From: Psychrilyobacter atlanticus DSM 19335
Lineage (GTDB): Bacteria; Fusobacteriota; Fusobacteriia; Fusobacteriales; Fusobacteriaceae
Length of the DNA stretch: 64,000 bases
Direction: 5' to 3'
Assembly: GCF_000426625.1 (NCBI RefSeq)
Contig: NZ_KE384547.1
Coordinates: 1,477,159-1,541,158 of the forward strand
The position numbers and the translations under genes were made by a program. The notes under the pieces are model-generated. The model had not been told where the DNA came from. It did no database searches and saw nothing but the letters and a program-made list of their open reading frames with translations. Positions 9,774 to 60,418 of the stretch are shown here, piece after piece. Each line of letters starts with the position of its first letter. Within the stretch, counting starts at the first letter, position 1.

Positions 9774-9819
9774 GAATATATAAGAACTAAAAAAGCAGGA
9801 TGAAGCCCATCCTGCTTTT
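9774..9819. repeat. attL-like direct repeat containing a terminator hairpin
   Basis: ATAAGAACTAAAAAAGCAGGATGAAGCCCATCCTGCTTTT is identical to 60379..60418. The hairpin GCAGGATG/CATCCTGC lies at 9795..9815. Five more flanking bases match with one mismatch. Confidence 0.7.
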
Positions 9820-9863
9820 TTTGTAAATTAAGCTAACATAGCCTAAAATAAATAATTTCCTAA

Positions 9864-10289
9864 TTAGTCTACCCGTTTTTTTACCTTAGATGGGGTTTTC
9901 AAACGGAAATCATTTGTTTTTAACTGATAAACATCTGTTTCCCAGGTTGCTCCCAATTCATAGATATGCCATTCCATTTCCTTGGGGAGAATTTTTTTTT
10001 CGAGAAGATTATTTAAACCTTGAATTGCTTCTTCAACACTGCAATAAACCACACCATCACCATAGCTTCCATCTGCCTCTAAAAAGGACTTAGGGAAAGT
10101 TGGAGGCACTTGATCAGCCAGAATAACTCCTAATTTTATAACAGGCTTCCCATTTTCAAGTGATTTATCATAATTAATATCTGCAATTGTGTAAACGCCT
10201 GAACATCTACTGTTTTGTTCTTCACCTAAAGCCAAGCTATAAAAAGCTAAAATCATAATAACTAAAATTACAAATACATTATTTTTCAA
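9864..10289 (-). CDS. Hypothetical secreted protein (prophage cargo, next to the att site)
   Basis: 141 aa. N-terminal signal peptide. RBS GAGGGAG. No recognisable domain. Confidence 0.4.
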   Translation of the reverse strand: MKNNVFVILVIMILAFYSLALGEEQNSRCSGVYTIADINYDKSLENGKPVIKLGVILADQVPPTFPKSFLEADGSYGDGVVYCSVEEAIQGLNNLLEKKILPKEMEWHIYELGATWETDVYQLKTNDFRLKTPSKVKKRVD

Positions 10290-10329
10290 AATTTCATCTC
10301 CCTCAATTACTTTTCGGACTAATCCATCT

Positions 10330-10380
10330 GCTTATAGATATTAGTCCCTGTAGCTTGTACTAGCGGGAGTAATTTCTATC
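10330..10380 (-). pseudogene. Degenerate duplicate of the 3' end of the SDR gene, including its stop codon
   Basis: The reverse complement reads ...CAAGCTACAGGG...ATATCTATAAGC...GAAAAGTAA. It aligns to SDR codons QATGRDIYK...EK* at 60435..60500 (about 29 of 33 core positions identical). One frameshift and a premature TAG are present. Confidence 0.45.
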
Positions 10381-10534
10381 TTTTCATACAGTTGTATAAT
10401 TATAAATATAGACTTTTATTTTCTATGCATAAAGTAATTATATAACACTAAACACTCCGTGTCCACTAAGGTTAAGTGGTAGATTTTATGTGATAAATTC
10501 GGAGCACACGTTAGAGCCTCTGTCTTTAAAAGTA

Positions 10535-10572
10535 AATAAAAAATCAGGCAAGAATGGCCTGATTTTTTATTA
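10535..10572. terminator. Bidirectional intrinsic terminator after the HD-GYP gene
   Basis: ATCAGGCaagaatgGCCTGAT hairpin flanked by an A6 run and a T6 run. Confidence 0.5.
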
Positions 10573-10726
10573 TATTTTTTTATCTCTACCCTAGTAGTAC
10601 ACTAATGGTTTTCCACCATGTGATCTACTAGAATTGAAATGAATTTCTAAATCTTTTTTACTTCAACCTATACTATACGATCTCTTTTCTTCTTGTACGT
10701 ATAATTATCTAATTATAAAAATTTAA

Positions 10727-12262
10727 TTACTCGTTTGAATCAGGGAATTCTAAATGAATTTCTTGGAATTTATGATTTAACTTTTTAAAAGCTTCTAATA
10801 CATGAGGGTCAAAATGTTCTGGCATAGTTCTACCATTTCCCTCTAAAATAATTTTCATAGTCTTCTCATGAGTAAATGCTTCTTTGTAATGCCTTTTACT
10901 CATCAAAGCATCATATACATCTGCCATTGCCATTAATCTTGCAGAAATTGGAATTTCCTCTCCGACTAAACCTCTAGGATATCCTAATCCATCCCATTTT
11001 TCATGGTGAGAATAAGCTATTTCTTTCGCAAAGCGTAAAAAAGAGTTAGTTCCCATAATTTTTTCTGCTTTTAATATAGCATCTCTTCCATAAGTTGTAT
11101 GTTTTTTCATCTCTTCAAATTCTTCTTTTGTTAATTTTCCTGGTTTCATTAAGATGTTGTCTGGGATTCCAACCTTACCAATGTCATGTAGCTGGGCTGA
11201 ATCGACAATTAATTCGATTGTTGCTTTATTTAGATGATTTGAAAACTTGGGATGATCTTTAAGATGCTCTGCCAAAACTCTTACATAGCTTTTTGTACGA
11301 TAAATATGCATACCAGTCTCATTGTCTCTGGTCTCAGCTAAAACAGCGAGACTTTTGATGGTAACTTCTTGAGTTAATTTTACTTCTTTTGTACGTTCAT
11401 CAACTTTTTGTTCTAAAATTTCATTTTGTTCTTCTAATTTATATTTAACCTCTTTTAGCTCCATATCTCTTATATTAATTTTTTTAATCATAGAGTTAAA
11501 ATTTTGAATTAAGTAACCAAATTCTTCATTGAGGTTATGAATAATTTCATGTTTATAATCACCATTAGAGACTTCATTTACTGCATTAGATAATTTAGTT
11601 ATCGGTAAAAATATTATATATACCAATAAAATTAATATCCCTAGAAGTAACAAAGTTCCGCTTATAATATATTTTTTAAGGAATAAATCATGATTTTTCA
11701 AAAGGACTCCCTCAAAAGAACTAGTATTTGCTTCTACAAAAACAACACCTATTATATCATTTTTATTTATTTGGCTGTAGGCGATTCCTTTAATGGGAGC
11801 TGCAGCTTCAAATTTCTTTTTTTTAAAATCTGAATGAAAATATTGTAATCTATTTTCTTTAATAACCTTTTTTACATGTTCATTTTTGAGTATTTTACCG
11901 ATTTCAGCTTTGTTGTTGGAAGAAAGAATCGTATCATGCAGGTCATAAACACGTATTATTTTTATAAAGGAATATGCTCCAATTTTTTCAACCATTCTCT
12001 GTACTGACTTGAGGTCCCCTTTATCTAAAAGGATTGAAATCCCAAAATCTGAACTAAATAATGTAGAGGAAATCTGATCTTTAACTTGTTTCTCAAAATA
12101 ATTACGAAAAAGGTTATCGGTCAAAGAAAAAGTAAAAATAATATTTACTGTTACTGCTACTATTATTCCAGCAGCAATTTTAAAATATAATTTTATAAAG
12201 GATTTATTCCATTGCCTAATCATCTTTATCGCCTGCCTCTTGAGCGACAGGGTCTGCATCAA
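10727..12262 (-). CDS. Membrane sensor HD-GYP phosphodiesterase (TM-HAMP-coiled coil-HD-GYP)
   Basis: HD motif HDIGKVGIP. HD-GYP signature HHEKWDGLGYP. Two TM segments flank a periplasmic domain and a HAMP-like linker. Overlaps the upstream SBP gene. Confidence 0.7.
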   Translation of the reverse strand: MMQTLSLKRQAIKMIRQWNKSFIKLYFKIAAGIIVAVTVNIIFTFSLTDNLFRNYFEKQVKDQISSTLFSSDFGISILLDKGDLKSVQRMVEKIGAYSFIKIIRVYDLHDTILSSNNKAEIGKILKNEHVKKVIKENRLQYFHSDFKKKKFEAAAPIKGIAYSQINKNDIIGVVFVEANTSSFEGVLLKNHDLFLKKYIISGTLLLLGILILLVYIIFLPITKLSNAVNEVSNGDYKHEIIHNLNEEFGYLIQNFNSMIKKINIRDMELKEVKYKLEEQNEILEQKVDERTKEVKLTQEVTIKSLAVLAETRDNETGMHIYRTKSYVRVLAEHLKDHPKFSNHLNKATIELIVDSAQLHDIGKVGIPDNILMKPGKLTKEEFEEMKKHTTYGRDAILKAEKIMGTNSFLRFAKEIAYSHHEKWDGLGYPRGLVGEEIPISARLMAMADVYDALMSKRHYKEAFTHEKTMKIILEGNGRTMPEHFDPHVLEAFKKLNHKFQEIHLEFPDSNE

Positions 12263-13211
12263 AGAGGTTATTTATCTCAACATCCTTTGATATTAAATTA
12301 TTTTCTACAAGAAACATTTCAATATTTTTTAATTCATCCTTGAAGTCTTCTGAAGAAAAAATATTTTTATTTTCTTCCAAAGTAAAAAATTTAAAATCCT
12401 CATAAAAATTTTTAAATTCATCATAGGTCATCCCTTCTTTGGAAGCCATCAATTCATAAGCCTCTTGGGGGTTATTTTTTACAAATTTCTGTGCCCTATA
12501 CCAGGCTCGGATAATATTGGCATAGTCTTTTTTTCGTTTTTCCAAACTCTCGTTCCTAGCTACTAAAGCATCAATATAATTTAAGGTCTCGTCAGTAGCA
12601 GCTATTATTTTACCATGGCCTTTATCAGCTGCATTGCTTAAATAAGGCTCATAAATAAAGCATGCATCCACCTCTTCAGAGATAAATTTCTCCATTCCTT
12701 CCTCTGAACCTACAGATATTATTGTTATATCATTTTCTTTTAATCCCTCTCTTTTTAGAACTTTATATAGTAAAAAATGATCATCGGTTCCTATTTCTAC
12801 TGCCACTTTTTTGCCTTTTAAATCTTTTACACTTTTGATATAGTCTTTAACTACTAACCCATCTGCTCCATTAATTGTATCTGAAGAAAGTATTATTCTT
12901 GCGGATTCTCCTCTAGAATCATAGTATACAGTATTAAAATATGATGAATGCACTAAGTCAACTTTTCCAATATAAAGAGAGTCCATACTATCCGACCATC
13001 TAGAAAATCTGACAATTTCTACAGGTGTATCACCAAAATAACCTTTTTCTTCAGCAATATACCATAATTCGCAAGGAGGCCAACTGTCTATACCTATTTT
13101 AATGGGCTCTTTATAGGATTCACATGCTGTAAACAAAATTAAGATCACTGTTAAACATAAATTAATAATTCTATTTTTTTTAACTCTCATACTTTCCTCC
13201 TTTGTAATCAA
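12216..13211 (-). CDS. Periplasmic substrate-binding lipoprotein (NMT1/SsuA/TauA-like ABC-type SBP fold), translationally coupled to HD-GYP
   Basis: Signal peptide with lipobox (LFTAC). Type 2 periplasmic-binding-protein-like sequence. The likely true start is the internal Met (MRVKK...). 3' end overlaps 10727..12262 by up to 47 nt. Confidence 0.5.
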   Translation of the reverse strand: MITKEESMRVKKNRIINLCLTVILILFTACESYKEPIKIGIDSWPPCELWYIAEEKGYFGDTPVEIVRFSRWSDSMDSLYIGKVDLVHSSYFNTVYYDSRGESARIILSSDTINGADGLVVKDYIKSVKDLKGKKVAVEIGTDDHFLLYKVLKREGLKENDITIISVGSEEGMEKFISEEVDACFIYEPYLSNAADKGHGKIIAATDETLNYIDALVARNESLEKRKKDYANIIRAWYRAQKFVKNNPQEAYELMASKEGMTYDEFKNFYEDFKFFTLEENKNIFSSEDFKDELKNIEMFLVENNLISKDVEINNLFDADPVAQEAGDKDD

Positions 13212-13292
13212 ATAATGATCTAAGATAAAATAATAAATAATTATTATGGAACTTTCAAATCATTTTATATGACTAAAAAACTATCCAATTTA

Positions 13293-14201
13293 TTATAGTC
13301 TATTCATTAGAGTTATTTGGTTTTTACCATTTTTTTTAGATTCATACATAATTTTATCAGCTCTATCTATCAATTTTTTATGATTTTCAAATTTTCTATA
13401 TGTAGTGATTCCAATGCTCAAGCTTAATTTTATTTCACTTTCTTTTACTGATGACATAGAAGCATTTTGTTTAAGCCTTTCAGTTATTTTTAGCGCTGTC
13501 TTTACTTTTGTATTAGGGTAAATAATTAAAAATTCATCTCCACCATATCTGAAAGCATAGTCAGACTCCCTTATAGAATTATTTATTTGTTCACCCAAGT
13601 TTTTTAATGTCATATCTCCTTTTATATGACCATAAGTATCATTAATAGTTTTAAAATTATCTATATCAATAAACGCCACTGATATATCTGAGTATATTTC
13701 ACTCAATTCATTTAGTATATTATCTAGACGTTCTTCTAGATGGTATCGGTTATATAGTCCTGTTAGGGAATCTTTTATACTTTTATCATATATGACTTTA
13801 TTTTCTTCTGACAGGGTGTTCTTAATTTTCTTTTCGTTCATAAAACGCCAAATAATAGCAATTGATATAGTAATCAATCCAGTTGGTATTAAAATATTTT
13901 CTATTCTAGATAAAGGACCTTCTAGGATATAAATCTTATCCATTACATCTTGTAAATTTCCTAAATAAAACAAAATGAATCCACTGGTCATTAAATAATA
14001 GTTATTCTTATTTTTAAAATCAACTTTTCCAAAATATATCCATATTAGAGGTTGAATACATATCAAAATCTCACTTAAAATATCCGACAATTCTGTGTTT
14101 TCTATTTTTTTAAATGACATATCAAAGTAGATTAATATTATAGTTATTATCACTAAAATTAAGTAAGGTATAGTTTTCTTAACCCGTTTAAATTTTTTCA
14201 T
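13293..14201 (-). CDS. Membrane-anchored diguanylate cyclase (GGDEF)
   Basis: Four predicted TM helices. DSLTGLYNR...RYGGDEF active-site motif. Confidence 0.7.
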   Translation of the reverse strand: MKKFKRVKKTIPYLILVIITIILIYFDMSFKKIENTELSDILSEILICIQPLIWIYFGKVDFKNKNNYYLMTSGFILFYLGNLQDVMDKIYILEGPLSRIENILIPTGLITISIAIIWRFMNEKKIKNTLSEENKVIYDKSIKDSLTGLYNRYHLEERLDNILNELSEIYSDISVAFIDIDNFKTINDTYGHIKGDMTLKNLGEQINNSIRESDYAFRYGGDEFLIIYPNTKVKTALKITERLKQNASMSSVKESEIKLSLSIGITTYRKFENHKKLIDRADKIMYESKKNGKNQITLMNRL

Positions 14202-14295
14202 ATTACTTACTCCTTTTATTCTCTAGATTATTAGATTAAATGCAATTTAATACTTAGCTCTTCTAAAAGTTTTCTTGGGTAGTTTTCTAATTTAA

Positions 14296-14480
14296 ATATT
14301 TACTGTTCTTGCACTTTAAACTTTGTTATCAGTATTACCTCTTCAACACTCATTTTAAGTATTTTCACATCACGTTTATACTATAAATTAATAAAAAATT
14401 AATTTTATTTATTATTCTTTTATACCTTTTTCTCTTTTATTTCCTTTTTTATAAAAAAAGGTTTAACCCTCTCTAAAGTT
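14296..14480. repeat. Repeat E1, a decayed copy of the holin-terminator plus zinc-ribbon-gene 5' region (E2 at 17685..17906)
   Basis: About 80-85% identity to E2 over more than 170 bp, including an exact 16-mer TTCTTGCACTTTAAAC. Encodes a 17-codon pseudo-ORF MSVEEVILITKFKVQEQ*, homologous to the start of 17585..17732 (MEKKEVICLKCKKK...). The terminator stem lacks 5 nt relative to E2. Confidence 0.55.
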
Positions 14481-14819
14481 ACTTTCTTATTGAATTAGTT
14501 TCCTAAAAAATAACTTTGTTCTATGATTCCATGGATTTACTTTTAACTCTATCCTTTTCCTTTGATTTAAAATCTTTCAAACCCACCGATACCTTATATT
14601 TATCTAGCTCATTATAAAGCTTATCATTAGAGTTCAATTAATCACGGACAAAATTCTAAGAAAATCGAAAACAAATCAATAAATAATACTAAATAAAAGG
14701 ACAGTAAATTTATACTGTCCTTCAAAGGTTTATTTTATTGATGTCAATTATGAAAGTTACGAAAAAATTATTTTGTAACTTTCTTGTAATATGTTGAATG
14801 AACTTAAAAAATATTCCGT

Positions 14820-15998
14820 TTATAAAACTTCCCATTGGAAATTTTCATTCTCAAAAAGTTCCACGCAAAAATCTACTATTTCAGGATCGTAATATTTCCC
14901 TCTGCCTAGTTTTATCTCATCCAAAGCTGCTTTTATTCCTAAGGCAGGCCTATAAGGTCTATGGGAACTAATTGCTTCTACCACATCTGAGACTGCGATT
15001 ATCTTTGCCTCTATAATAATTTCTTCTTTCATCAACCCGTTGGGGTAACCAGAACCGTCTAATCTCTCGTGATGTTGGATTATCATCTTTTTTATATCCC
15101 ATGGAAAGTCGATACCACTTATTATCTCTTGCCCTATTTCTGAGTGAAGTTTGATCAAATCAAATTCAGGTTTAGTGATCTCCCCAGGCCTATTTAGTAT
15201 CTCTCCAGGCACATAGATCTTCCCTATATCATGGATCAAAGCCCCAAGACGTAGCCCCTCTATACGCTCCTCACTCAACCCAAGTTTCTTAGCAATAGCA
15301 ACTGCTAGCTTTGTCACTCTTTTCTGATGCCCTGCAGTATAAGGATCTCTTTTTTCTATGGCAAGTACAAAAGCATCTATTGTTTTCAACAGAATTTCAT
15401 AGTGAGCTTTCTGAGCTTGTTCCCTTTCTTTTTTAAGTCTTAAGACATAAATTCCTTGGGCAATATTTTTAGTGAGCCTATGAAAAAGCTCCACCTCCTC
15501 ATTTTTGAAGGCGTCTTTACTATTTGAATATACATTTAATGCTCCTATTATATCCCCTTCGGATTCAATAGGTAATGCAATACTTGACCTATAGCCGAAT
15601 TCCTTAGCTTTTTCTCTCCAAGGCAAATAATCCGTACCTTTCATGATATCTTTCATCAAATATTCCCTACATTCACGGATGGCCCTTCCTGTTGGGCCCT
15701 GACCGTAGACATTATCGCCCCAACTTATATTTATGGAGGATAAATACCCTTTTTTAAAACCCGCTTCTGCAACTGGTATGACCTTTTTCTCGGAATCGTT
15801 GCCAATAGAACCTATCCAGGCTAACTTATATGGACCTTCGTCAACTAGAATTTTGCAAATTTTTGTATATATCTCCATCTCATCTTTTGCAGCTACAATT
15901 ATATCTTGACACTTTATAACGGTAGAATATGCATTTCTCATTCTTTGAAAAGATATCTCTAAATTTTCAACCTTAAAATCACTAGACTGATTCTTCAT
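14820..15998 (-). CDS. Cytoplasmic GAF-domain HD-GYP phosphodiesterase
   Basis: N-terminal GAF-like region. HD motif LIHDIGKIYVP. HD-GYP signature HHERLDGSGYP. Confidence 0.7.
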   Translation of the reverse strand: MKNQSSDFKVENLEISFQRMRNAYSTVIKCQDIIVAAKDEMEIYTKICKILVDEGPYKLAWIGSIGNDSEKKVIPVAEAGFKKGYLSSINISWGDNVYGQGPTGRAIRECREYLMKDIMKGTDYLPWREKAKEFGYRSSIALPIESEGDIIGALNVYSNSKDAFKNEEVELFHRLTKNIAQGIYVLRLKKEREQAQKAHYEILLKTIDAFVLAIEKRDPYTAGHQKRVTKLAVAIAKKLGLSEERIEGLRLGALIHDIGKIYVPGEILNRPGEITKPEFDLIKLHSEIGQEIISGIDFPWDIKKMIIQHHERLDGSGYPNGLMKEEIIIEAKIIAVSDVVEAISSHRPYRPALGIKAALDEIKLGRGKYYDPEIVDFCVELFENENFQWEVL

Positions 15999-17906: not shown

Positions 17907-18368
17907 TCACTTTTTATTAATTTCGGAACTCCCGAAATAGAAACCTATTATTAGCATGGTGATGTTAGTAATAGACCCAACTACCATGCTATTCATCTGT
18001 TTGTCACTACCTACTTCTCCTTTTAGGCTTATCCAGTATAAATAAATACAAAATGATACCCATACAAGTGCTATCAAGGCACTGATGTTCTTTTGAAGCC
18101 AAGATGAGTTATTAGAATTATTTATTTTAAAATTCATATCTCTGGCATTTTTCTTGTCATCTAAGATAAATTTTATATATTCATTTTCCTTTTCTTTTAA
18201 TTTTAAAACCAGCTGAGGATCTCCCTGTAGGGCTTCTAGGATCCCATTTGCTGTGTTAGAGCCTGTAAGTCCTGTAAGAGTTGTTAATGCTCCTACAGGG
18301 TTTCCAATGACTGCCTGGGCTAGTGCCGGAAGTCCTTTATCTTTGAAAAAATTTATAATTTTATTCAT
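17907..18368 (-). CDS. Putative holin
   Basis: 153 aa. C-terminal hydrophobic segments (ISALIALVWVSFCIYLYWI and MLIIGFYF). Sits immediately downstream of the endolysin. Confidence 0.45.
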   Translation of the reverse strand: MNKIINFFKDKGLPALAQAVIGNPVGALTTLTGLTGSNTANGILEALQGDPQLVLKLKEKENEYIKFILDDKKNARDMNFKINNSNNSSWLQKNISALIALVWVSFCIYLYWISLKGEVGSDKQMNSMVVGSITNITMLIIGFYFGSSEINKK

Positions 18369-18376
18369 GTTACCTC

Positions 18377-18751
18377 CTAATCCAACTGGAAATGTGGATA
18401 GTCTTTAAAAGTCTTCCAATCCCCGCCATAACTATTTTTTATACCCAGATAATCAGCACAAACTTTCAATTCCTCACCAACCTTTTTAAAACTTTCTATG
18501 TCGTTCCACCCATTAAATGGATACGGAATAAAATCTATAGCTTTCCCTATTTGATGTTTAGATTTTTTATTGACTCCATCCAATTTACTAAATCCATTTT
18601 TAAATGCTTTTTGCTGGTCCTCTAAGCTCCTTAAGCCACACGTAATAGTCAGGTCTACCTTCCCTCTGGCTAATACCATTCCAACTATTAGAGGTAGTCT
18701 AGGATCTATTTCTTGGATATTTTTGATGCTTCTATTCGATATTTTATTCAT
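18377..18751 (-). CDS. Endolysin, M15-family zinc peptidase (L-alanyl-D-glutamate / D-Ala-D-Ala peptidase fold)
   Basis: SxHxxGxAxD motif (SKHQIGKAIDF) and a distal D...H (DYPHFQLD). 124 aa. Confidence 0.65.
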   Translation of the reverse strand: MNKISNRSIKNIQEIDPRLPLIVGMVLARGKVDLTITCGLRSLEDQQKAFKNGFSKLDGVNKKSKHQIGKAIDFIPYPFNGWNDIESFKKVGEELKVCADYLGIKNSYGGDWKTFKDYPHFQLD

Positions 18752-18754
18752 TTT

Positions 18755-19009
18755 TCACCTCCTGTCTTTTAATAGATCAATAGCTATCTTTATATGTTCT
18801 AAAAGGCTTTTATGATCTTCTTGATGATTTTTAATATATGTTTTAAAGTCACTCTTATCTACCTTCTTGTCATCCAGGAATCTTTCCATGGTTTTAATCT
18901 CTATTTTAATTTTCCCTTGTTCCCTCCAGAGATATAAACTAAATAAGATAATGATGACAATCAACCCTTTTAATGGGTCATCTAGAATTAAATTAAATAA
19001 TGGTATCAT
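18755..19009 (-). CDS. Small membrane protein (possible second holin or antiholin)
   Basis: 84 aa with one TM helix (GLIVIIILFSLYLW). Position upstream of the endolysin. Confidence 0.3.
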   Translation of the reverse strand: MIPLFNLILDDPLKGLIVIIILFSLYLWREQGKIKIEIKTMERFLDDKKVDKSDFKTYIKNHQEDHKSLLEHIKIAIDLLKDRR

Positions 19010-19021
19010 TCCGCCTCCTAT

Positions 19022-19549
19022 TTAAATTAGAGTAAGTTCTTGAGAAGTATCAGCATGAAGTTGTAATAATCTTACTATTTCAGGATCTGGTTTAATTATT
19101 TTCATCCCTAGTTTTTCTCTAGAATCTAACCTCGTTTGTCTATTTTCTAAATCAGTTTCGATTGCTTTAATCCTATTATTTATACTATCGATCTCACTTT
19201 GTTTATCATAGATCCAGATATTAGCGTTCCAGGTATAAAATTCTCCAGGAGAGGGAATAGTTTTTATCATATTCTCTTCTAAGATTTCACCAATTCCAAG
19301 GATTTTATACCCTTTTTCTATTTGCTCTCTATCGTTTAGAAAGTATAGAGTAAAATCAGATTGAATAGTATATGGTTCTACTAATTCTCCCTCGTATACA
19401 AAATGGATCTCTGGATCATAGTCATATGGGAATGCTTTTTCATATTTCCCATCAATTCTATTCTCATCCAAAGAAACAGATTTTATATGTTTTTCTTTTG
19501 CTAGTTCCCATGTATTGGCTGCTTCTTTTTTAAATAAGTTATATCTCAT
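19022..19549 (-). CDS. Putative tail fibre assembly or distal fibre protein
   Basis: Position immediately downstream of the tail fibre gene, as gpG sits in P2-like clusters. No motif. Confidence 0.3.
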   Translation of the reverse strand: MRYNLFKKEAANTWELAKEKHIKSVSLDENRIDGKYEKAFPYDYDPEIHFVYEGELVEPYTIQSDFTLYFLNDREQIEKGYKILGIGEILEENMIKTIPSPGEFYTWNANIWIYDKQSEIDSINNRIKAIETDLENRQTRLDSREKLGMKIIKPDPEIVRLLQLHADTSQELTLI

Positions 19550-19586
19550 TTTTCACCTCACTTTTTATCTCTCAACCAAAACAAAT

Positions 19587-33373: not shown

Positions 33374-33377
33374 GTCT

Positions 33378-46145: not shown

Positions 46146-46158
46146 AGTTATGTCTCCT

Positions 46159-46983: not shown

Positions 46984-47016
46984 CCTTAACCTCCTCTAAT
47001 CACTTCAGTATTATTT

Positions 47017-49776: not shown

Positions 49777-49791
49777 TTATTTATCTCCTAT

Positions 49792-50697: not shown

Positions 50698-50721
50698 AAA
50701 TCCTCCTCTGGCAGTAAGTCC

Positions 50722-53523
50722 CTACCAAGTATACTTATGTACAATCTCTGCAACCTGGTCTTTGATTAATTCTATTTTTGCTTTTCCATCTCTAAATCCT
50801 AATTTTTGTGTGAAAGCTCCCTTTATCTGTTTTCTGTCAAACTTGTTGGAATATTCATATTCACTCATTATATTTTCCATTCCCTCTCTATCCAACTGTT
50901 CATCTTCTACAAGGTTATTTATCGCACTTTCTTTTTCTACTTGTATAAATTTATCGAATTCATCTTCGATATTTTCCGGATTATCCAAATGAGGTACATT
51001 TTCTTCTATAAATTTCTCTATAAGTTTCTTCTTACTTCTAAGTTCAGGTGCATTTTCTATAGCTTTTAGTATAAACTCTTTATCCTTGGCAAAACCTTCA
51101 GCTTTAGGATCAAGTTCCTTTAATAAAGCCATGATATAAGCCACATTTATATCATCTCTTCTGATAAGATCTATTTCAAAATCCAATTCATCTATTATAG
51201 ACGTTTTCTCAATTCCATTTTCATTTGTATTTTTATATTTTTCAAAAATATCTAGATATTTACTTTTATAATCTTCAAATGTCTGATGATCTATATCTAA
51301 TACATCAAAAGAAAACTCACTAAAACTAGTTAATCTAGTCATAACTCTGAGCAGGTTTCTATATGCTTGGACAAAATGTGCTATATCATCTTCACTCTGC
51401 AGGTCATCTACTGAATCTACACTTGGAGTTATTGCTGTTAGTTTTTCTAAATAACCATTAAATTCATCTACATATGCAGAATATTCTTTCATTAATACAG
51501 TCTCTAAAGCTTCTTTATTAGAAAATAATTTTATAGCTTCATCTGTTCTATTTTTTAGATTTCTAAAACAAACTATATTTCCATGCTTTTTCTTTTCATT
51601 TAATAACCTATTAGTTCTTGAAAATGCCTGAACAAGTCCATGATATTTTAAATTTTTATCTACATAAAGTGTATTTAATCCTTTACTGTCAAAACCTGTT
51701 AGGAACATATTTACTACTAATAGAATATCTATCTTTTGTTTTTTTACTTTCTTGGAAATATCAATATAATACCCATTAAACCCGCCATCTTTGTTTAGGT
51801 CATGGTTAGTTCCAAATGTAGTATTATACTCAGTAACTATTTCATCTAGCTTATCTCTTGTATGCTTATTAGTTTTTTCTTTCTCTTCTTCAGTATAACC
51901 ATCTGCTTCCAGATCTTCTTCATTAGCTGAATATGTAAATATTGTAGCTATTTTTAGATTATGGTCCTGGCTTTTAAGCAAATCATAATATTTAATCAAT
52001 GTATCGATAGAACTAATTGCAAAAATAGATGTAAACTCTTTACCATATGTTTTCCTGGTATGATTAGCAATTATAAATTTTGAAATATTTTCTAATCTTT
52101 GGGGAGCATTAAAGACCTCTTTGGTATCTATACCCTGAACTTTGAGATCATCTACCGGGAGATCTTCTCCATCAGGCCCGATGAGACACTTGGACTTAAA
52201 TGTATTATAATATTCCACTGAAAATCCCAATACATTGTCATCACTTATGGCATCTTTAATCACATATTTATGTAAACAGTCATTAAAAAGATCTGCAGTA
52301 GTTTTATGTTTTATTGCATTATCTGCAAATATAGGTGTACCGGTAAATCCGAAAAATTGTTTTTGATTAAAAAATTCAGTTATCTTATTATGTGTATCTC
52401 CAAACTGGGATCTGTGACACTCATCAAATATAAATACCATCCTTTTATCTTTTGCTATACTCATTTTTTTCTCTAAATTTCCCTTACTAATAGCATTATT
52501 TAATTTTTGGATAGTGGTAATTATTAGTTTAGTTTTATTATCTGTTATCTGTTTTACCAGGTGATTGGTGTTATCTGTACCATCTATACTTCCCTTTGAA
52601 AAAGCATTAAATTCTTTTATAGTCTGATAATCCAGATCTTTTCTGTCTACTACAAATAATACTTTTTCTATATTTTTATTCTGAGTAAGAATTTGACTTG
52701 CCTTAAATGAAGTAAGGGTTTTCCCTGACCCGGTAGTATGCCAGATATAACCATTTTTACCTGGTGAAGTTTCAACTCTGTTCAAGATTTTTTCTACTGC
52801 ATAATACTGATATGGTCTCAGTGCCATCAATATTTGGTCCGATTCATGAAGCACTATATATTTAGCTATAATCTTAGCTAAATGACATTTTTCCAAGAAT
52901 ATATCTGTAAATTTATTTAACTCACTATATCTGTTATTTTCAATGTCAGTCCAATAAAAAGTCTGCTTAAACGACTGATACCTGTTATTGGCATAATATT
53001 TTGTATTTACACCGTTACTTATTACAAACAGCTGGATATAGTGAAATAATCCCTGATAAGAATGTTTATGATATCTGTTTACCTGGTTAAATGCTTCTTT
53101 AAGTTCTATCCCTCTTCTCTTTAGTTCGATCTGTACCATGGGAATTCCATTTATAAGAATAGTCACATCATATCTATTTTTATATTTTCCTACCATGGTA
53201 ATTTGATTAGAAACCTGAAATATATTTTTACACCACTCTTTTTGATTAAAGAATTCTAAATAAAAAATATCTCCATTATCTCGGTTTAATTCAAATTTAT
53301 CTCTTATTTTCTTGGCTTTTTCAAATACACTCCCTCCAGACAAATGGATAAGAACTCTTTCAAATTCTCTGTCAGAAAGATATATCTTATTATGAATCTC
53401 AAGCTGTTTTCTAAAGTTTATTTGAAGTTTGGCTTCATCATCTATACAAACTTTTTCATACCCTTGTGATACTAGCTGATCTATAAGTTTATTTTCAAGT
53501 GCTGCTTCTGATTGTGTGCACAT
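50722..53523 (-). CDS. hsdR: Type I restriction endonuclease R subunit
   Basis: HsdR N-terminal nuclease region. SF2 helicase motif I TGSGKT and motif II DECH (FDECHRS). 933 aa. Confidence 0.8.
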   Translation of the reverse strand: MCTQSEAALENKLIDQLVSQGYEKVCIDDEAKLQINFRKQLEIHNKIYLSDREFERVLIHLSGGSVFEKAKKIRDKFELNRDNGDIFYLEFFNQKEWCKNIFQVSNQITMVGKYKNRYDVTILINGIPMVQIELKRRGIELKEAFNQVNRYHKHSYQGLFHYIQLFVISNGVNTKYYANNRYQSFKQTFYWTDIENNRYSELNKFTDIFLEKCHLAKIIAKYIVLHESDQILMALRPYQYYAVEKILNRVETSPGKNGYIWHTTGSGKTLTSFKASQILTQNKNIEKVLFVVDRKDLDYQTIKEFNAFSKGSIDGTDNTNHLVKQITDNKTKLIITTIQKLNNAISKGNLEKKMSIAKDKRMVFIFDECHRSQFGDTHNKITEFFNQKQFFGFTGTPIFADNAIKHKTTADLFNDCLHKYVIKDAISDDNVLGFSVEYYNTFKSKCLIGPDGEDLPVDDLKVQGIDTKEVFNAPQRLENISKFIIANHTRKTYGKEFTSIFAISSIDTLIKYYDLLKSQDHNLKIATIFTYSANEEDLEADGYTEEEKEKTNKHTRDKLDEIVTEYNTTFGTNHDLNKDGGFNGYYIDISKKVKKQKIDILLVVNMFLTGFDSKGLNTLYVDKNLKYHGLVQAFSRTNRLLNEKKKHGNIVCFRNLKNRTDEAIKLFSNKEALETVLMKEYSAYVDEFNGYLEKLTAITPSVDSVDDLQSEDDIAHFVQAYRNLLRVMTRLTSFSEFSFDVLDIDHQTFEDYKSKYLDIFEKYKNTNENGIEKTSIIDELDFEIDLIRRDDINVAYIMALLKELDPKAEGFAKDKEFILKAIENAPELRSKKKLIEKFIEENVPHLDNPENIEDEFDKFIQVEKESAINNLVEDEQLDREGMENIMSEYEYSNKFDRKQIKGAFTQKLGFRDGKAKIELIKDQVAEIVHKYTW

Positions 53524-54082: not shown

Positions 54083-54790
54083 TTAATTCCATTCATCCTC
54101 ATAATATGTTTTTATTACCTTTCCTTCACACTTTAATTCCTCACTATTTAAAATTATTAATGCAGGAACATCAGGGTTAAATGATACTAATTGGATAATA
54201 TTCTGACTATCTATTAATAATTGTTTTATAAAAGTCTCCTCATTATACGTAAACACACAAACTTTTTTATTCAGTTCTTTAGGGTCTTCACACATTCCAG
54301 GGTCTACCAACGCTACTGATCCATCAAAAATAGATTTTTTCCCCATCCTAGTCATGGAATCTCCTTCTACCCTCACTGCAAATCTTCCTGGAGCATAGTC
54401 TTCTGCCGGAATAACAAATTCTTCATCAATCATATCTGATAAATTTATATATCCTGGACCTGCACTTGCAGTTCCATACATTGGAACTGTAGTTTTTTGA
54501 GTTTCGATTCTAGAATTTATTCTTTTTACATTTGATGGTATGTTTAAATAGCCTATCTCGTTAAATACTTTAATTACATCAAGATCGTATATTTTGCATA
54601 AGCTTTTTAGCAATATTGCATTGGGAACTTTTCTCTCTGCATTTTCCAACCTTTGAACATCACTCTTACTAATTTTTAGATTTAAAAAATCTAATTTTAT
54701 TTTTACCTGTTCTAATGTTAATTTTTTATTTGAACGACCATTTTTCAATAATTCTCCTAATTTAATCATTTGGTCATTATTTAATTTCAT
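54083..54790 (-). CDS. LexA/CI-like repressor (XRE HTH plus S24 peptidase)
   Basis: N-terminal HTH. C-terminal S24 autopeptidase motif (VRVEGDSMTRMG...) with a downstream Lys region. Confidence 0.75.
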   Translation of the reverse strand: MKLNNDQMIKLGELLKNGRSNKKLTLEQVKIKLDFLNLKISKSDVQRLENAERKVPNAILLKSLCKIYDLDVIKVFNEIGYLNIPSNVKRINSRIETQKTTVPMYGTASAGPGYINLSDMIDEEFVIPAEDYAPGRFAVRVEGDSMTRMGKKSIFDGSVALVDPGMCEDPKELNKKVCVFTYNEETFIKQLLIDSQNIIQLVSFNPDVPALIILNSEELKCEGKVIKTYYEDEWN

Positions 54791-57819: not shown

Positions 57820-57989
57820 AACGAACATTGATTAAAAATTGGGATTATTTTAGGATTAAGACCTTGCCTGATATTAAAAAATTAGTGCTGCACGATGTGG
57901 AATATACCGATCAAGTTGATATCCAAGGAATGTACTTTGAAGCATATCTGCAGAAAGAAGCTATTGAATTTGAAGTAGAGAGGAGTTGA
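57816..57989 (+). CDS. Hypothetical small protein (57 aa), translationally coupled
   Basis: The ATGA overlaps the upstream stop. ORF MKRTLIKNWDYFRIKTLPD.... Confidence 0.25.
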   Translation: MKRTLIKNWDYFRIKTLPDIKKLVLHDVEYTDQVDIQGMYFEAYLQKEAIEFEVERS

Positions 57990-57993
57990 TTTT

Positions 57994-58380
57994 ATGAAAC
58001 GAGGAGTTTTAAACGATGATATTTTAGTTGAACTAGAGCAGATTATCCCTGAATATCTCCCATTTCAGCATTTAAAACTATTAAGGTTTTTACCTTTTAT
58101 TGATCACACAGTAAAAAATAAAGGAATATTTAAAAAAGACCAAGTAACTCGGGAAGAATTTGAAATATTATCTTATTTAGTTGAAAAAAGACATTTAGAT
58201 CTAAGTCTTCTTAATGGGCAAGCAATAAGTTCAATAATTAATCCCAAATATAAAAAAGTGGTAAGTTCAATGATTAATCCTAAATATAAAATAAAGATTA
58301 GAGATTATAAATTTTATAATCTTATGCAAAGAGCTCTATGGTTCTCATATGTCGAAAGAAGGCTTCCATGGGAAAAGTAA
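57994..58380 (+). CDS. Hypothetical protein
   Basis: 128-aa ORF. RBS GAGGAG. Confidence 0.3.
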   Translation: MKRGVLNDDILVELEQIIPEYLPFQHLKLLRFLPFIDHTVKNKGIFKKDQVTREEFEILSYLVEKRHLDLSLLNGQAISSIINPKYKKVVSSMINPKYKIKIRDYKFYNLMQRALWFSYVERRLPWEK

Positions 58381-58486
58381 AATTTATTAAGGAGGGTATA
58401 AACTATGCTATTAGGAAACGAAAAATTAACTAAAAAACAAAAGAGGGAGATCTCCAAAAGAGTCATGGAACTTTTAAGGGAATTAG

Positions 58487-59830
58487 ATGATGAAGAATAA
58501 AAAAGGAATAATTTATGTCAGAGAATCCACCAAAGACCAGGACTGGGAAGCTCAGCTTATAGAGTGTAGAAATTATGCTGCTAAACTGGGAATCGAAGTT
58601 GTAAAGGAATATGTAGATCAGATGTCCGGAGCCAGGAACGACCGGAAAGGATTCCTTGAGCTTCAGGATGATATAAAAAATGCTGAATTTGATATCTTAA
58701 TCCTATGGGAACTTTCTCGTGCCACCAGGGATTTCATAACCTATCGACTTCTATTCCAGAGTCTAAAAGAAGCCGATATAGAACTTCACTCCCTTCAGGA
58801 AGGTATCCTGGCTACTGATGATGATATAGATAAAAACTTTGGTATAGACATTATGGCTCTCCTAAACGAGAGGGAAAGAAAGATCGTCGGCCGTAGGATA
58901 AAAATAAGAAAAGACTCCCTCAGATATTCCGGTAGATGGGGAGGAGGGAGAACTCCCCTTGGATACTCCAGTAATGGCCCTGAATTATTTATAAATGATG
59001 ATGCTCCCTTAGTTCGTGAGATCTTTAATCTCTATTCAAAAGGTGAATCTATAGCAGCTATAGCTAGAAAATTTGGAATGAATGATCGAAAAAGAGTAGG
59101 CAGAATATTAAAAAATCCATTATATACCGGTAAAATAGTTATAGCCACTGAATCTGTCAATGGAAAAACTAAAGTATACAACCCCCCTAAACTAATAGAC
59201 GGGCTCCATGAACCCATCATCTCTGAAGAATTATTCTATTCCATCAATAAAATCAGGAAAAGTAATAAACCTAAGAGTTATAAAGATCATTATCTATTCA
59301 ATAATGTAATCTGCCAATGTGGAAAAAAAGCCTATCCCTGCAGAAATAAACATGGTCACCTCACATATGATTGTTTGAACCACGTACACTGGCATAGTGG
59401 CGCTATGTTGGAGGAACAGGTTATTGATATCTTAGAAAAAGAGATGGAAAAAATGACCCTAGAAGATGATGATCCAAACAATCCAAAAGTAAGAATTACC
59501 CTCTATGAAAATGAACTAAAAAAAATTATAACCAAGGAAAAAAACTTGTTAACTAAATACCTGGATGGAAAAGTTACTGAATCCCTTTTTGATTCTACTA
59601 GTTTAGAATTATCCAAAACAAAGAAAGGGATCCAGGAAGAAATAAAATCATTGAAAGAATACAAACCTAATACTATTAATATAGATAACAAAACTCTGTT
59701 AAAAAAGTACCTGAAAAAAATTAAAAATGAAAAGGACCGAAAAAAGATAAAGAAAATATTGAATTTAATAATTTATGAAATTAAATACGTTAATAATTTT
59801 AGAGCTGTAGTTATCACTAACCTTATTTAG
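58487..59830 (+). CDS. Large serine recombinase (phage integrase)
   Basis: N-terminal resolvase catalytic domain with IIYVRESTKDQ (serine nucleophile motif). Recombinase domain. C-terminal Cys-rich zinc ribbon (CQCGKK...CRNKHGH...C) and coiled coil. 447 aa. Confidence 0.8.
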   Translation: MMKNKKGIIYVRESTKDQDWEAQLIECRNYAAKLGIEVVKEYVDQMSGARNDRKGFLELQDDIKNAEFDILILWELSRATRDFITYRLLFQSLKEADIELHSLQEGILATDDDIDKNFGIDIMALLNERERKIVGRRIKIRKDSLRYSGRWGGGRTPLGYSSNGPELFINDDAPLVREIFNLYSKGESIAAIARKFGMNDRKRVGRILKNPLYTGKIVIATESVNGKTKVYNPPKLIDGLHEPIISEELFYSINKIRKSNKPKSYKDHYLFNNVICQCGKKAYPCRNKHGHLTYDCLNHVHWHSGAMLEEQVIDILEKEMEKMTLEDDDPNNPKVRITLYENELKKIITKEKNLLTKYLDGKVTESLFDSTSLELSKTKKGIQEEIKSLKEYKPNTINIDNKTLLKKYLKKIKNEKDRKKIKKILNLIIYEIKYVNNFRAVVITNLI

Positions 59831-59838
59831 GAGGAGCC

Positions 59839-60402
59839 ATGATTTTATATGACAAAATCAAAGCAAAATATAGTAAAGAAGAAATAAAAGAACTCTTAGG
59901 CATTTCTATTGGCGGAAGAATAATTCGAAATGAAATAAATGTGAATCCCAGCTCCATAAGCTCAAAAATAAATTTATTGGAACTCTGCTATACAATGGAA
60001 GATTTTTTTATTGATTATAAGGAAATCACTGATAAATATATAGAAAAAAATATGTATTATAACCTTTTTTTAAGGGGTTTAACTATAAATTATATTAAAA
60101 ATAAATTTGATTTAGAAACCCAAATATATGCATATTTAATCCGGGGTTTTGATTATAATGGTTTCACTAGAAACATGCATCTAGCTTTTGATTCTTTAGG
60201 GATTGTAGTAGATACCTCTCCCTTTACAGTAGATTTATATAAAACTCATGTAGAGCTCTTTGGAAAAAAAGAGGACCTGGAAAACTTTAGGAATAGATAC
60301 GGCATCAAATGGGAGCTCTGGTATGAGCCATACAGAAAGTCCTGGCATCTTGCCTTTAACGGCTGCCTAGCTGAATACATAAGAACTAAAAAAGCAGGAT
60401 GA
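59839..60402 (+). CDS. Hypothetical protein whose 3' end overlaps attR
   Basis: 187-aa ORF. Its last 8 codons and its stop lie within the 40-bp att repeat; the stop sits in the hairpin loop. Confidence 0.35.
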   Translation: MILYDKIKAKYSKEEIKELLGISIGGRIIRNEINVNPSSISSKINLLELCYTMEDFFIDYKEITDKYIEKNMYYNLFLRGLTINYIKNKFDLETQIYAYLIRGFDYNGFTRNMHLAFDSLGIVVDTSPFTVDLYKTHVELFGKKEDLENFRNRYGIKWELWYEPYRKSWHLAFNGCLAEYIRTKKAG

Positions 60403-60418
60403 AGCCCATCCTGCTTTT
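60373..60418. repeat. attR-like direct repeat containing a terminator hairpin
   Basis: Identical 40-mer to 9780..9819. Confidence 0.7.

What the first reader, a model, noticed from the sequence alone, without database searches (positions are those of the whole stretch)
9774..60418. Prophage of about 50.6 kb between convergent host genes, bounded by a 40-bp perfect direct repeat that is itself a bidirectional terminator hairpin
ATAAGAACTAAAAAAGCAGGATGAAGCCCATCCTGCTTTT occurs at 9780..9819 and 60379..60418, and in total 45 of 46 positions match. Everything between is phage: integrase, immunity, replication, defence island, head, tail and lysis. Outside lie the convergent host genes VOC and SDR. 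Joining the outer flanks rebuilds a plausible attB: VOC stop, 40 nt, a shared GCAGGATG/CATCCTGC terminator, 16 nt, SDR stop. The att core is an intergenic terminator rather than a tRNA or a protein 3' end. On the phage side the core forms the last codons and stop of ORF 59839..60402.
Basis: seen in the sequence. Interest (0 to 1): 0.6.

Follow-up and report, generated by a model that had tools for sequence, protein, structure and literature searches.

The report
Serine-integrase prophage with duplicated right-end remnant
A roughly 50-kb prophage really does sit between two host genes of Psychrilyobacter atlanticus, but its 40-base flanking repeat is probably a leftover of an earlier related phage, and the integrase most likely targets the end of the neighbouring dehydrogenase gene instead.

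Summary
The repeat is real: 40/40 at 9780-9819 and 60379-60418, or 49/51 from 9769/60368. It folds as a two-way terminator hairpin. About 50 kb of myovirus-type prophage lies between the copies, in Psychrilyobacter atlanticus. Relatives without the phage have VOC and SDR 22 nt or 1.1 kb apart.

The interpretation needs correcting in three ways.
1. The only recombinase is a large serine integrase. That type normally leaves cores of a few bases.
2. The repeat holds the last 11 codons and stop of phage gene orf187, so the left copy is a truncated phage remnant, not a plain host terminator.
3. A second, diverged repeat exists. The last ~21 codons of SDR are duplicated at 10307-10372, with a perfect 13-nt core (CCCTGTAGCTTGT) at 10346-10358 and 60474-60486. 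That core sits in a pseudo-palindrome.

The live SDR tail matches the tails of related lysogens rather than those of the closest hosts. The integrase-orf187 pair lies beside an SDR orthologue in five contexts, one in another genus.

Most likely the integrase targets the SDR 3' end and the phage supplies a substitute tail plus terminator. It is unresolved whether this prophage entered there (10359-60486) or by homologous recombination inside the 40-mer. This is an ordinary kind of element with an instructive locus history.

The parts
9222..9734 (+). Left host flank: VOC/glyoxalase-family gene (TIGR03645 lactoylglutathione lyase family)
   Evidence: Pfam and NCBIfam hits. The HxlR-VOC pair is conserved in relatives L016-L022.
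9769..9819 (+). Left copy of the repeat. It is an in-frame relic of the last 11 codons and stop of orf187 (LAEYIRTKKAG*, 9771-9803) fused to the terminator hairpin (stems 9795-9802 and 9808-9815). The 40 exact bases are 9780-9819.
   Evidence: The two mismatches (GCC/GCT, TAT/TAC) are both synonymous.
9864..10289 (-). ORF141, a DVU_2496-family exported lipoprotein. It lies between the left hairpin and the SDR-tail relic. It is either a host gene downstream of the original SDR or a moron in a phage arm.
   Evidence: NCBIfam NF041942. Homologues occur in chromosomal, non-phage contexts in L023, L026 and L028. L028 is 84% identical in nucleotides over 9848-10301 only.
10307..10372 (-). Relic copy of the last ~21 codons of the SDR gene (…QATGTNIYKQMD*SEK*)
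   Evidence: Direct repeat D7 with 60435-60486, 39/52 identical. BLAST E = 2e-5 in a search space of about 1 kb. Closest to the SDR tail of phage-free L005, at 83%. Tail-type table.
10346..10358 (.). Left copy of the 13-nt perfect core CCCTGTAGCTTGT, the proposed serine-integrase crossover region (attL). The pseudo-palindrome is centred on TG at 10356-10357.
   Evidence: Symmetry is 16/24, reached by only 16 of 63940 positions in the window, and 18/32 with longer arms.
10535..10571 (.). Second two-way terminator-like hairpin. It closes the c-di-GMP cargo operon just inside the proposed left end.
10727..15998 (-). Cargo: Cache/HAMP-HD-GYP sensor, NMT1-like binding protein, GGDEF cyclase and GAF-HD-GYP phosphodiesterase
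   Evidence: Pfam. Absent from the VOC-SDR interval of relatives.
17907..40198 (-). Late genes: lysis (endolysin 18377-18751), tail fibre, baseplate, tape measure, tube, sheath, neck, major capsid, protease, portal, and large (37959-39749) and small terminase
   Evidence: PHROG and Pfam hits.
41357..42673 (-). ParB-like N6/N4 DNA methyltransferase
45240..53523 (-). Defence island: type I R-M (HsdS 47017-48234, HsdM 48235-49776, HsdR 50722-53523), plus DUF5677, DUF4238 and a PDC-S18 candidate
54083..54790 (-). HTH + S24 peptidase repressor (CI/LexA-like)
58487..59830 (+). Large serine recombinase. It has the catalytic motif YVRESTKDQ, a recombinase domain, a Cys-rich zinc-ribbon region and a Lys/Glu-rich coiled-coil region.
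   Evidence: Pfam PF00239 and PF07508. phrog_95 integrase. Aligns to the A118 integrase C-terminal domains and to XisF over its full length. Sequence.
59839..60402 (+). orf187, the conserved partner gene of the recombinase. Its last 11 codons and stop lie in the right repeat.
   Evidence: 17 homologues. In every context fetched where the upstream DNA is present, it lies directly downstream of the recombinase. Its C-terminus WHLAFNGCLAEYIR.KK is the best-conserved part.
60368..60418 (+). Right copy of the repeat: the orf187 3' end plus terminator hairpin (stems 60394-60401 and 60407-60414)
60435..60500 (-). Live 3' tail of the SDR gene (…QATGRDIYKLTNLDEK*). It is proposed to be phage-borne.
   Evidence: 27/30 identical to the tail in lysogen L010, although the two SDR bodies are only about 77% identical. 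Only 60% identical to the tail of the closest host, L016.
60474..60486 (.). Right copy of the 13-nt core CCCTGTAGCTTGT (attR)
60435..61256 (-). Right host flank: YdfG-like short-chain dehydrogenase (SDR)
   Evidence: Synteny SDR-RelA/SpoT-acylphosphatase-Ppx holds in relatives.

Best explanation
The window holds a temperate myovirus-type prophage of Psychrilyobacter atlanticus. Its only recombinase is a large serine integrase.

Proposed mechanism. The integrase's attachment site is not the terminator hairpin. It lies in the last ~20 codons of the SDR gene, around the conserved coding motif QATG (13-nt core CCCTGTAGCTTGT). In the phage, the DNA between orf187 and attP carries three things: a two-way terminator that contains the orf187 stop codon, a 16-nt spacer, and a substitute copy of the SDR tail. 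Integration therefore leaves SDR intact and terminated.

On this reading the present prophage spans about 10359-60486 (50.1 kb). The displaced older SDR tail survives at 10307-10372.

The stretch 9769-10306 was already in the chromosome. It is what remains of the right end of an earlier related element, namely the last 11 codons of its orf187, its terminator and ORF141. That is why the current phage's orf187 end and terminator appear twice, as the 40/51-nt repeat.

What is shown: the two repeats, the insertion relative to other genomes, the integrase type, the conservation of the orf187 C-terminus, and the link with SDR.

What is inferred: the crossover position, the phage origin of the live tail, and the order of events.
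For: - The integrase is a large serine recombinase, and no tyrosine integrase or transposase was found among the ORFs scanned.
- Phage serine integrases have short common cores of 5-8 bp, and their attP sites are pseudo-palindromic with 25-bp half-sites (PMC8092301 and PMC3783163).
- The SDR tail is duplicated, 39/52 with a perfect 13-nt core.
- The site at 10356 is pseudo-palindromic at 16/24, reached at a frequency of 0.00025 across the window. The reconstructed attP scores 14/24, and 18/32 with longer arms.
- The relic tail is of the T type (QATG followed by T). The phage-free relatives L005 and L016 have the same type, and L016 is the closest host (RelA 90.5%, SDR body 87.4%).
- The live tail is of the R type (QATG followed by R). 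It matches lysogen L010 at 27/30, although the two SDR bodies are about 77% identical. R-type tails also occur in lysogens L003 and L011.
- The integrase-orf187 pair lies beside an SDR orthologue in the window, L003, L009, L010 and L011-L012. In L011 the SDR is only 63% identical in amino acids.
- The right-end layout orf187-hairpin-short spacer-SDR is shared with L003 and L010.
- The left repeat copy is an in-frame relic of the conserved orf187 C-terminus.
Against: - A 40/40 identity between an old remnant and the incoming phage is unexpected. The hairpin differs between related elements: 37/40 against L003, and less against L010. Under this model the identity is a coincidence or the result of later gene conversion.
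- If the left structure is the arm of an earlier phage, which the presence of small exported-protein genes at the same position in L009 and L011 suggests, then the integrase would have had to use an attR-type site. The standard serine-integrase model forbids that.
- L009 is a lysogen with a T-type tail, and L004 is phage-free with an R-type tail. Neither fits without extra assumptions.
- In L015 the module lies next to an epimerase gene, not SDR.
- The higher tail identity to L010 (45/53 against 433/565 for the gene body) is not statistically significant on its own.
- No empty site from the same species and no free phage genome was available.
Confidence: 0.42

Rival explanations
1. Entry by homologous recombination inside the 40-mer. 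The phage genome itself carries orf187-hairpin-ORF141-SDR-like tail-core-P', which is an intact serine-integrase attP at 10346-10358. The chromosome carried a compact remnant of an earlier lysogeny: an orf187 relic, the hairpin, 16 nt, and an R-type tail joined to SDR. That remnant is an attR-type site the integrase cannot use. So the phage integrated Campbell-fashion by RecA-type recombination in the only long stretch of perfect identity. The prophage then has the reader's limits (about 9820-60418), and the 40-mer is the crossover site but not a site-specific att core.
For: - It explains the perfect 40 nt flanked by diverged sequence: 2/11 mismatches to the left, an unalignable spacer to the right, and a tail about 25% diverged. 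Recombination needs such a stretch of identity.
- It respects the rule that attP x attR does not recombine (PMC3783163).
- The left arm layout, hairpin-small exported protein-T-type tail, matches the right ends of L009 and L011. The L009 integrase is the closest, at 93.5%.
- The left junction as it stands is as symmetric as any reconstruction, at 16/24 and 18/32.
- L005 carries a similar remnant joined to its SDR: GCCGAATA, a hairpin with compensatory stem changes, a T-run and GTAAATTAA.
Against: - Recombination over 40-51 nt is rare compared with integrase-mediated entry.
- The prophage would have no integrase-mediated way out.
- ORF141 homologues are otherwise found in ordinary chromosomal contexts.
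- It requires that the hybrid right end happens to look exactly like the compact right ends of L003 and L010.
Confidence: 0.33
2. The terminator hairpin is itself the site-specific attachment core, shared by attP and attB. The integrase crosses over inside or right next to it, for example at the TTAA found at 9828-9831 and 60417-60420.
For: - A hairpin with the same stem follows VOC in the phage-free L016/L017.
- Joining the left flank through GTAAATTAA to the right flank from TTTATTGG recreates a 23-nt string, TTTTTTTGTAAATTAATTTATTG, that exists contiguously in L005.
- All right junctions read hairpin, T-run, A(A/G)TTT.
Against: - Serine integrases do not need or create long identities.
- The left copy contains phage coding sequence, so this model too needs an earlier phage remnant in attB.
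- It does not explain the duplicated SDR tail, the pseudo-palindrome at the 13-nt core, or why elements in another genus with different hairpins still sit by SDR.
Confidence: 0.1
3. Both repeat copies belong to the phage. The crossover lies left of the left copy, near 9760-9768, so the phage delivers a terminator to each end and attB had no hairpin.
For: L004 shows VOC and SDR 22 nt apart with no hairpin. This model needs no earlier remnant in the host.
Against: - Host-like sequence continues to about 9759, and a hairpin follows it at the same place in L016/L017.
- The left copy shares GCC with the L005 remnant, whereas all five phage copies have GCT.
- L004 looks rearranged: VOC has an internal deletion, there is a phage fragment upstream of SDR, and the tail is R-type.
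- It does not explain the SDR-tail relic.
Confidence: 0.05

Closest known systems
Phage large serine integrases (phiC31, Bxb1, A118/LI, TP901-1, SPbeta SprA; cyanobacterial XisF; staphylococcal CcrA/B)
   Same: Same domain series: a resolvase catalytic domain with the nucleophile serine motif, a recombinase domain, and a Cys-rich zinc ribbon with a coiled coil. The enzyme is 447 aa. It is encoded at the prophage end next to the attachment site. The proposed site is a pseudo-palindrome inside a conserved gene, with a short common core.
   Different: Described phage examples mostly disrupt the target gene and share 2-16 bp (5-8 bp in PMC8092301; the wider range is from my own knowledge). Here the target gene's 3' end appears to be replaced by a phage-borne copy plus terminator, and a much longer repeat (40-51 nt) also flanks the element. 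Sequence identity to characterised enzymes is low: about 27-29% to Fusobacterium phage Funu1, and all NCBIfam matches fall far below their cut-offs. No activity data exist.
Tyrosine-integrase prophages and islands that insert in the 3' end of a tRNA or protein gene and carry a replacement 3' end (P4, P22 and mycobacteriophage attB types)
   Same: A duplicated 3' end of the target gene flanks the element and the gene stays intact. The repeat is long and partly imperfect. PMC8092301 reports 25-76 bp cores at tRNA sites and one site seven codons from a stop.
   Different: No tyrosine integrase is present. The best-conserved repeat lies outside the target gene and includes phage coding sequence.
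Integration by homology with resident defective prophage remnants, such as lambda lysogeny in attB-deleted or int-minus settings through cryptic prophage homology (from my own knowledge)
   Same: A perfect stretch of identity bounded by diverged sequence flanks the element, and one copy is a truncated phage gene remnant.
   Different: Only 40-51 nt of homology is available. recA dependence has not been shown. It is one of two nearly equally likely routes here.
REP/BIME-type or other dispersed terminator-like repeats
   Same: A palindromic, G+C-rich stem in A+T-rich intergenic DNA.
   Different: Only two copies occur in 64 kb. None occurs elsewhere in about 250 kb of related loci except at the orthologous position. 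The exact 30-mer is absent from three public collections.

Membership tests
Integrated temperate tailed phage (prophage) | Gene modules for packaging, head, tail and lysis, plus a repressor and an integrase | tested here: met
   PHROG and Pfam hits for TerS/TerL, portal, protease, major capsid, sheath, tube, tape measure, baseplate, fibre, endolysin, S24 repressor and integrase. No replication genes were recognised.
Integrated temperate tailed phage (prophage) | The block is absent from the same locus in related genomes | tested here: met
   VOC and SDR are 22 nt apart in L004 and 1.1 kb apart in L016/L017. The flanking synteny is conserved. These are other species; no empty site from the same species was found.
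Integrated temperate tailed phage (prophage) | Excision or induction gives a circular genome and virions | not testable with these tools
   Needs reads or PCR across the attP and attB junctions, or induction.
Large serine recombinase | N-terminal resolvase domain with the catalytic serine motif | tested here: met
   PF00239 at E = 1.7e-25. The motif YVRESTKDQ lies at residues 10-18.
Large serine recombinase | Recombinase domain followed by a zinc ribbon with an inserted coiled coil | tested here: met
   PF07508 at E = 2e-14. Residues 152-401 align to the A118 integrase C-terminal domains, chain 4kis, at E = 7e-5. Full-length alignment to the XisF model. Cys cluster CQCG…C…C and a Lys/Glu-rich stretch. 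The zinc-ribbon Pfam model itself gave no hit.
Large serine recombinase | attL and attR share only a short core, and attP is pseudo-palindromic | tested here: inconclusive
   The 40/51-nt repeat does not fit. The 13-nt core in the SDR tail does fit, with 14-16/24 symmetry. The actual crossover point is not shown.
Tyrosine-integrase att with a long identity block | A tyrosine recombinase encoded in the element | tested here: not met
   No Phage_integrase hit in any ORF scanned between 9.8 and 60.4 kb. A few ORFs under 110 aa were not scanned.
Intrinsic two-way terminator | G+C-rich stem-loop followed by a U-run on both strands, placed between convergent genes | tested here: met
   Folds at -17 to -20 kcal/mol on both strands and is picked up by the terminator scan. 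Termination itself was not measured.
Dispersed REP-like repeat | Many copies per genome at unrelated loci | tested here: inconclusive
   Two copies in the window and none at non-orthologous places in the fetched loci. No exact match in three collections. The rest of the source genome could not be read.

The most novel reading that the evidence does not exclude
This serine-integrase phage family carries, as one arm of attP, a working copy of the target gene's 3' end plus a two-way terminator. Integration then recreates an attB-like site at attR. Related phages could stack or replace one another at the SDR gene, leaving nested remnants. The conserved orf187-terminator block would give a second, RecA-dependent way in and out when the integrase site is blocked. 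orf187, a confidently folded protein with no family assignment that is always coupled to the integrase, would be its directionality or accessory factor.
Probability: 0.15. Interest if true: 0.6.

Novelty: new member of a known kind. Interest (0 to 1): 0.38.

Why it matters
Taken at face value, the finding would have recorded a serine-integrase phage whose attachment core is a 40-bp terminator. That would be odd for this enzyme class and would misplace the prophage ends by about 0.5 kb.

The corrected picture is mostly ordinary: a new temperate phage of a little-studied marine Fusobacteriota genus, carrying a type I R-M system and c-di-GMP genes. It has two useful lessons.
1. The longest perfect flanking repeat need not be the att site. 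Remnants of earlier occupants can mimic one.
2. The integrase-orf187 pair, the 13-nt SDR core and the replacement tail give a concrete attP/attB pair to test for a new serine integrase, a class of interest as a genome-engineering tool.

If the replacement-tail design holds, it would be an unusual way for a serine-integrase phage to avoid inactivating its target gene.

Tried and rejected
- **Exact pattern scans.** The hairpin 30-mer, or a version with a degenerate loop, gave nothing in GTDB representatives, IMG/VR or JGI metagenomes. The source genome seems to be withheld from these collections, so this says nothing about other copies in the same genome.
- **Searches for a related free phage, to read attP directly.** The integrase and an orf187 alignment found nothing in IMG/VR. 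tblastn against GenBank phages gave only matches of 27-29% identity or less for the integrase and none for orf187.
- **Exact-protein look-ups for VOC and SDR.** These returned only short Logan contigs from SRR1797344. They break exactly 30 nt into the 40-mer, as expected for a 31-mer graph at a two-copy repeat. They carry no excision information.
- **VOC homologue P0020.** This led to an unrelated locus.
- **Dyad-symmetry scoring around the hairpin-adjacent TTAA and other candidate centres.** Uninformative.
- **Symmetry with 32-nt arms.** This does not separate the two leading models; both score 18/32.
- **A remnant of ORF141 in L005, L016 and L009.** None found.
- **Models rejected or downgraded.** I considered that the c-di-GMP genes might be host DNA with the true left end near 16-18 kb. 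I rejected this because relatives lack them between VOC and SDR and no junction signal was found there. I also considered a tandem-dimer origin of the left junction. It fits only if the two copies differed in arm structure, so I folded it into the serial-occupancy scenarios.

Full report
**1.
The 40-mer occurs exactly twice, at 9780-9819 and 60379-60418. None of 100 shuffles gave a match, even allowing three mismatches. The identity runs to 51 nt with two mismatches, 9769-9819 against 60368-60418.

Each copy folds on both strands into an 8-bp G+C-rich stem with a 5-nt loop, set between an A-run and a T-run. The energy is -17 to -20 kcal/mol, with z-scores of -3.5 to -6.3. The consensus terminator scan also finds both.

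ORF 59839-60402 (orf187) ends inside the right copy, with its TGA in the 5' stem and loop. The outer genes are a VOC/glyoxalase-family gene (9222-9734, +) and a YdfG-like short-chain dehydrogenase, SDR (60435-61256, -).

**2. What lies between the repeats.**
From right to left the block contains:
- a large serine recombinase (58487-59830) followed 8 nt later by orf187, with several small unknown genes further upstream;
- a Cro-like HTH protein and an HTH-S24 repressor (54083-54790);
- a complete type I restriction-modification system with DUF5677, DUF4238 and PDC-S18 neighbours (45240-53523);
- a ParB-like DNA methyltransferase;
- small and gpA-type large terminase, portal, protease, major capsid, neck, sheath, tube, tape measure, baseplate, fibre and endolysin, down to about 17.9 kb;
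- about 8 kb that is not core phage. It holds two small exported proteins and four c-di-GMP signalling genes (GAF-HD-GYP, GGDEF, an NMT1-like binding protein and a Cache/HAMP-HD-GYP).

I found no tyrosine integrase, no transposase and no recognisable replication gene. There are no tRNA genes in the window.

**3. Host and comparative loci.**
orf187 and ORF141 are identical to proteins of Psychrilyobacter atlanticus. SDR relatives come from Psychrilyobacter metagenome-assembled genomes.

Several relatives lack the phage:
- L016/L017 is the closest host (VOC 98% amino-acid identity; RelA 90.5% and SDR body 87.4% nucleotide identity). Its order is HxlR-VOC, a hairpin with the same stem (loop AATCG), 300 nt, a second related hairpin, a hexapeptide acetyltransferase, then SDR-RelA.
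- L004 has VOC and SDR 22 nt apart with no hairpin. That contig looks rearranged.
- L005 has SDR, then about 120 nt, then GTAAATTAA, a T-run, a hairpin with compensatory stem changes, and GCCGAATA. Unrelated host genes follow (RtcB).

So the roughly 50-kb block is an insertion relative to other species. I found no empty site from the same species.

Related elements, with the recombinase 60-94% identical and orf187 52-87% identical, lie next to an SDR orthologue in four other loci:
- L003 and L010, which are compact: orf187, hairpin, 8-16 nt, SDR;
- L009, which has a 132-aa lipoprotein gene in between;
- L011/L012, from another genus (SDR 63% amino-acid identity), with a 114-aa exported protein and an HNH gene in between.

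L015 is the exception, with an epimerase gene as neighbour.

**4. The repeat is not just a host terminator.**
The orf187 family has 17 members. In every fetched locus where the upstream DNA is present, orf187 lies directly after the recombinase. The most conserved segment is the C-terminus, EPYRKSWHLAFNGCLAEYIR.KK.

The left repeat copy reads in frame as LAEYIRTKKAG-stop. It differs from the live gene by two synonymous changes, and nothing resembling orf187 lies upstream of it. It is therefore a truncated copy of a phage gene end fused to its terminator.

Any model with a single crossover between one phage copy and one host copy needs the chromosome to have held such a remnant beforehand. The five phage copies read GCT-GAA. 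The left copy and the L005 remnant both read GCC-GAA.

**5. The enzyme does not fit a 40-bp core.**
The recombinase has these features:
- the catalytic motif YVRESTKDQ;
- Pfam Resolvase and Recombinase domains;
- an alignment to the A118 integrase C-terminal domains;
- a full-length alignment to XisF;
- a Cys cluster and a coiled-coil-like stretch.

Phage serine integrases have characteristically short common cores, 5-8 bp in 122 Mycobacterium abscessus prophages, and insert within genes (PMC8092301). Their attP sites are pseudo-palindromes with 25-bp half-sites, and only attP x attB recombines (PMC3783163).

**6. A second repeat points to the SDR gene.**
A repeat search found that 10307-10358 matches 60435-60486 at 39/52. 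Translated, 10307-10372 encodes …LLPLVQATGTNIYKQMD*SEK*. The live SDR end is …LTPNKQATGRDIYKLTNLDEK*.

A perfect 13-nt core, CCCTGTAGCTTGT, lies at 10346-10358 and 60474-60486. The DNA around the left core is a pseudo-palindrome centred on TG at 10356-10357, scoring 16/24. Only 16 of 63940 positions in the window reach that score. The reconstructed attP, the live tail joined to 10359 onward, scores 14/24, and 18/32 with longer arms (a frequency of 0.0013).

SDR tails fall into two types directly after the QATG codons:
- T type (QATG followed by T): the phage-free L016 and L005, the relic, and L009.
- R type (QATG followed by R): lysogens L003, L010 and L011, the live window gene, and L004.

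The live tail matches L010 at 27/30, although the two SDR bodies are about 77% identical. It matches the closest host, L016, at only 60%. The relic is closest to L005, at 83%.

These four points, together with the cross-genus link to SDR, suggest three things:
- the integrase site lies in the SDR 3' end;
- the phage brings a substitute tail;
- the terminator sits between that tail and orf187.

**7. How this prophage got in.**
Two histories fit almost equally well.

(a) *Integrase crossover at the SDR core.* The prophage is 10359-60486. The region 9769-10372 is the old locus, made up of a remnant of an earlier element, ORF141 and the displaced tail. The 40/40 identity is then a coincidence or a later conversion. 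This route is canonical, and it gives a right end collinear with L003 and L010. ORF141 homologues are ordinary chromosomal genes.

(b) *Homologous recombination inside the 40-mer.* The partners are a phage whose arm carries hairpin-ORF141-T-type tail-core-P' (an intact attP) and a compact chromosomal remnant whose site is attR-type and therefore unusable by the integrase. This explains the perfect 40 nt bounded by diverged sequence: 2/11 mismatches on one side, an unalignable spacer and a tail about 25% diverged on the other. It matches the arm layout of L009 and L011 and obeys the attP x attB rule. It is, however, a rare route with no integrase exit.

I rate (a) at 0.42 and (b) at 0.33. It keeps some support from the L016/L017 hairpin and from a 23-nt string in L005 that is recreated by joining the flanks at a shared TTAA. 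A model in which both copies are phage-borne gets 0.05.

**8. Comparison with known systems and novelty.**
This is a new temperate phage with a new, uncharacterised large serine integrase. In kind it is a known system.

The closest analogies for the gene-end replacement are tyrosine-integrase elements at tRNA or protein 3' ends. For history (b), the closest analogy is integration through homology with defective prophage remnants. No paper in the searched library mentions Psychrilyobacter prophages.

The most novel reading not excluded is a serine-integrase family whose attP arm recreates an attB-like site, which would allow serial occupancy, with orf187 as the accessory factor. I give that 0.15.

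**9. Limits.**
- All comparisons are between species.
- Only right ends of related elements were available.
- The source genome outside the window could not be read.
- The tail-type argument rests on eight sequences with two exceptions.
- No experiment supports any crossover point.

Noticed in passing
window 45240-53523: A complete type I restriction-modification system (HsdR, HsdM, HsdS) with DUF5677, DUF4238 and a PADLOC PDC-S18 candidate lies inside the prophage, between the repressor region and the methyltransferase and terminase genes.
   Followed up: partly
window 10727-15998: Four c-di-GMP signalling genes lie within the inserted block, between the left end and the lysis genes. They are a Cache/HAMP-HD-GYP sensor, an NMT1-like binding protein, a GGDEF cyclase and a GAF-HD-GYP. 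They look like lysogenic-conversion cargo. Their own two-way terminator is at 10535-10571.
   Followed up: partly
[not shown]
   Followed up: partly
window 9864-10289; L009 5583-5981; L011 5126-5470: Three unrelated small exported or lipoprotein genes occupy the same slot, between the orf187 terminator and the SDR tail, in three related elements. This looks like a moron slot in the attP arm.
   Followed up: partly
window 60453-60463 and 60502-60512: A perfect 11-nt inverted repeat, TGTGAGCTTAT / ATAAGCTCACA, straddles the 13-nt core in the live SDR gene. In the five other Psychrilyobacter SDR genes compared, the same two segments match at only 4-7 of 11 (read by eye from the alignment).
   Followed up: partly
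L004 (MAG contig NZ_JBATVM010000019.1) 377-484 and 2074-2388: The contig that shows VOC next to SDR also has an internal deletion in VOC. In place of RelA/SpoT upstream of SDR it has a fragment 80% identical to the C-terminus of the 171-aa structural protein encoded at 28654-29169 (positionally the tail tube; PHROG calls it head closure). The locus is rearranged and may be a decayed lysogen.
   Followed up: no
L016 10547-10575 and 10867-10900 (same in L017): Two related hairpins (GCAGGATG… and GGCAGGATGAT…) lie 320 nt apart between VOC and a hexapeptide acetyltransferase gene in the phage-free relative.
   Followed up: no
window 31554-32447: An SPFH/Band-7 family protein (phrog_200) is encoded within the head-tail morphogenesis module.
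   Followed up: no
L001 end and L002 end (Logan contigs of SRR1797344): Both short-read contigs stop exactly 30 nt into the 40-mer from opposite sides. This is the signature of a 31-mer assembly graph branching at a two-copy repeat, and it confirms independently that the repeat has two different contexts in that sample.
   Followed up: yes
window 19892-19961 and 20102-20171: A 70-nt internal direct repeat, 80% identical and spaced 210 nt apart, lies inside the tail-fibre gene.
   Followed up: no
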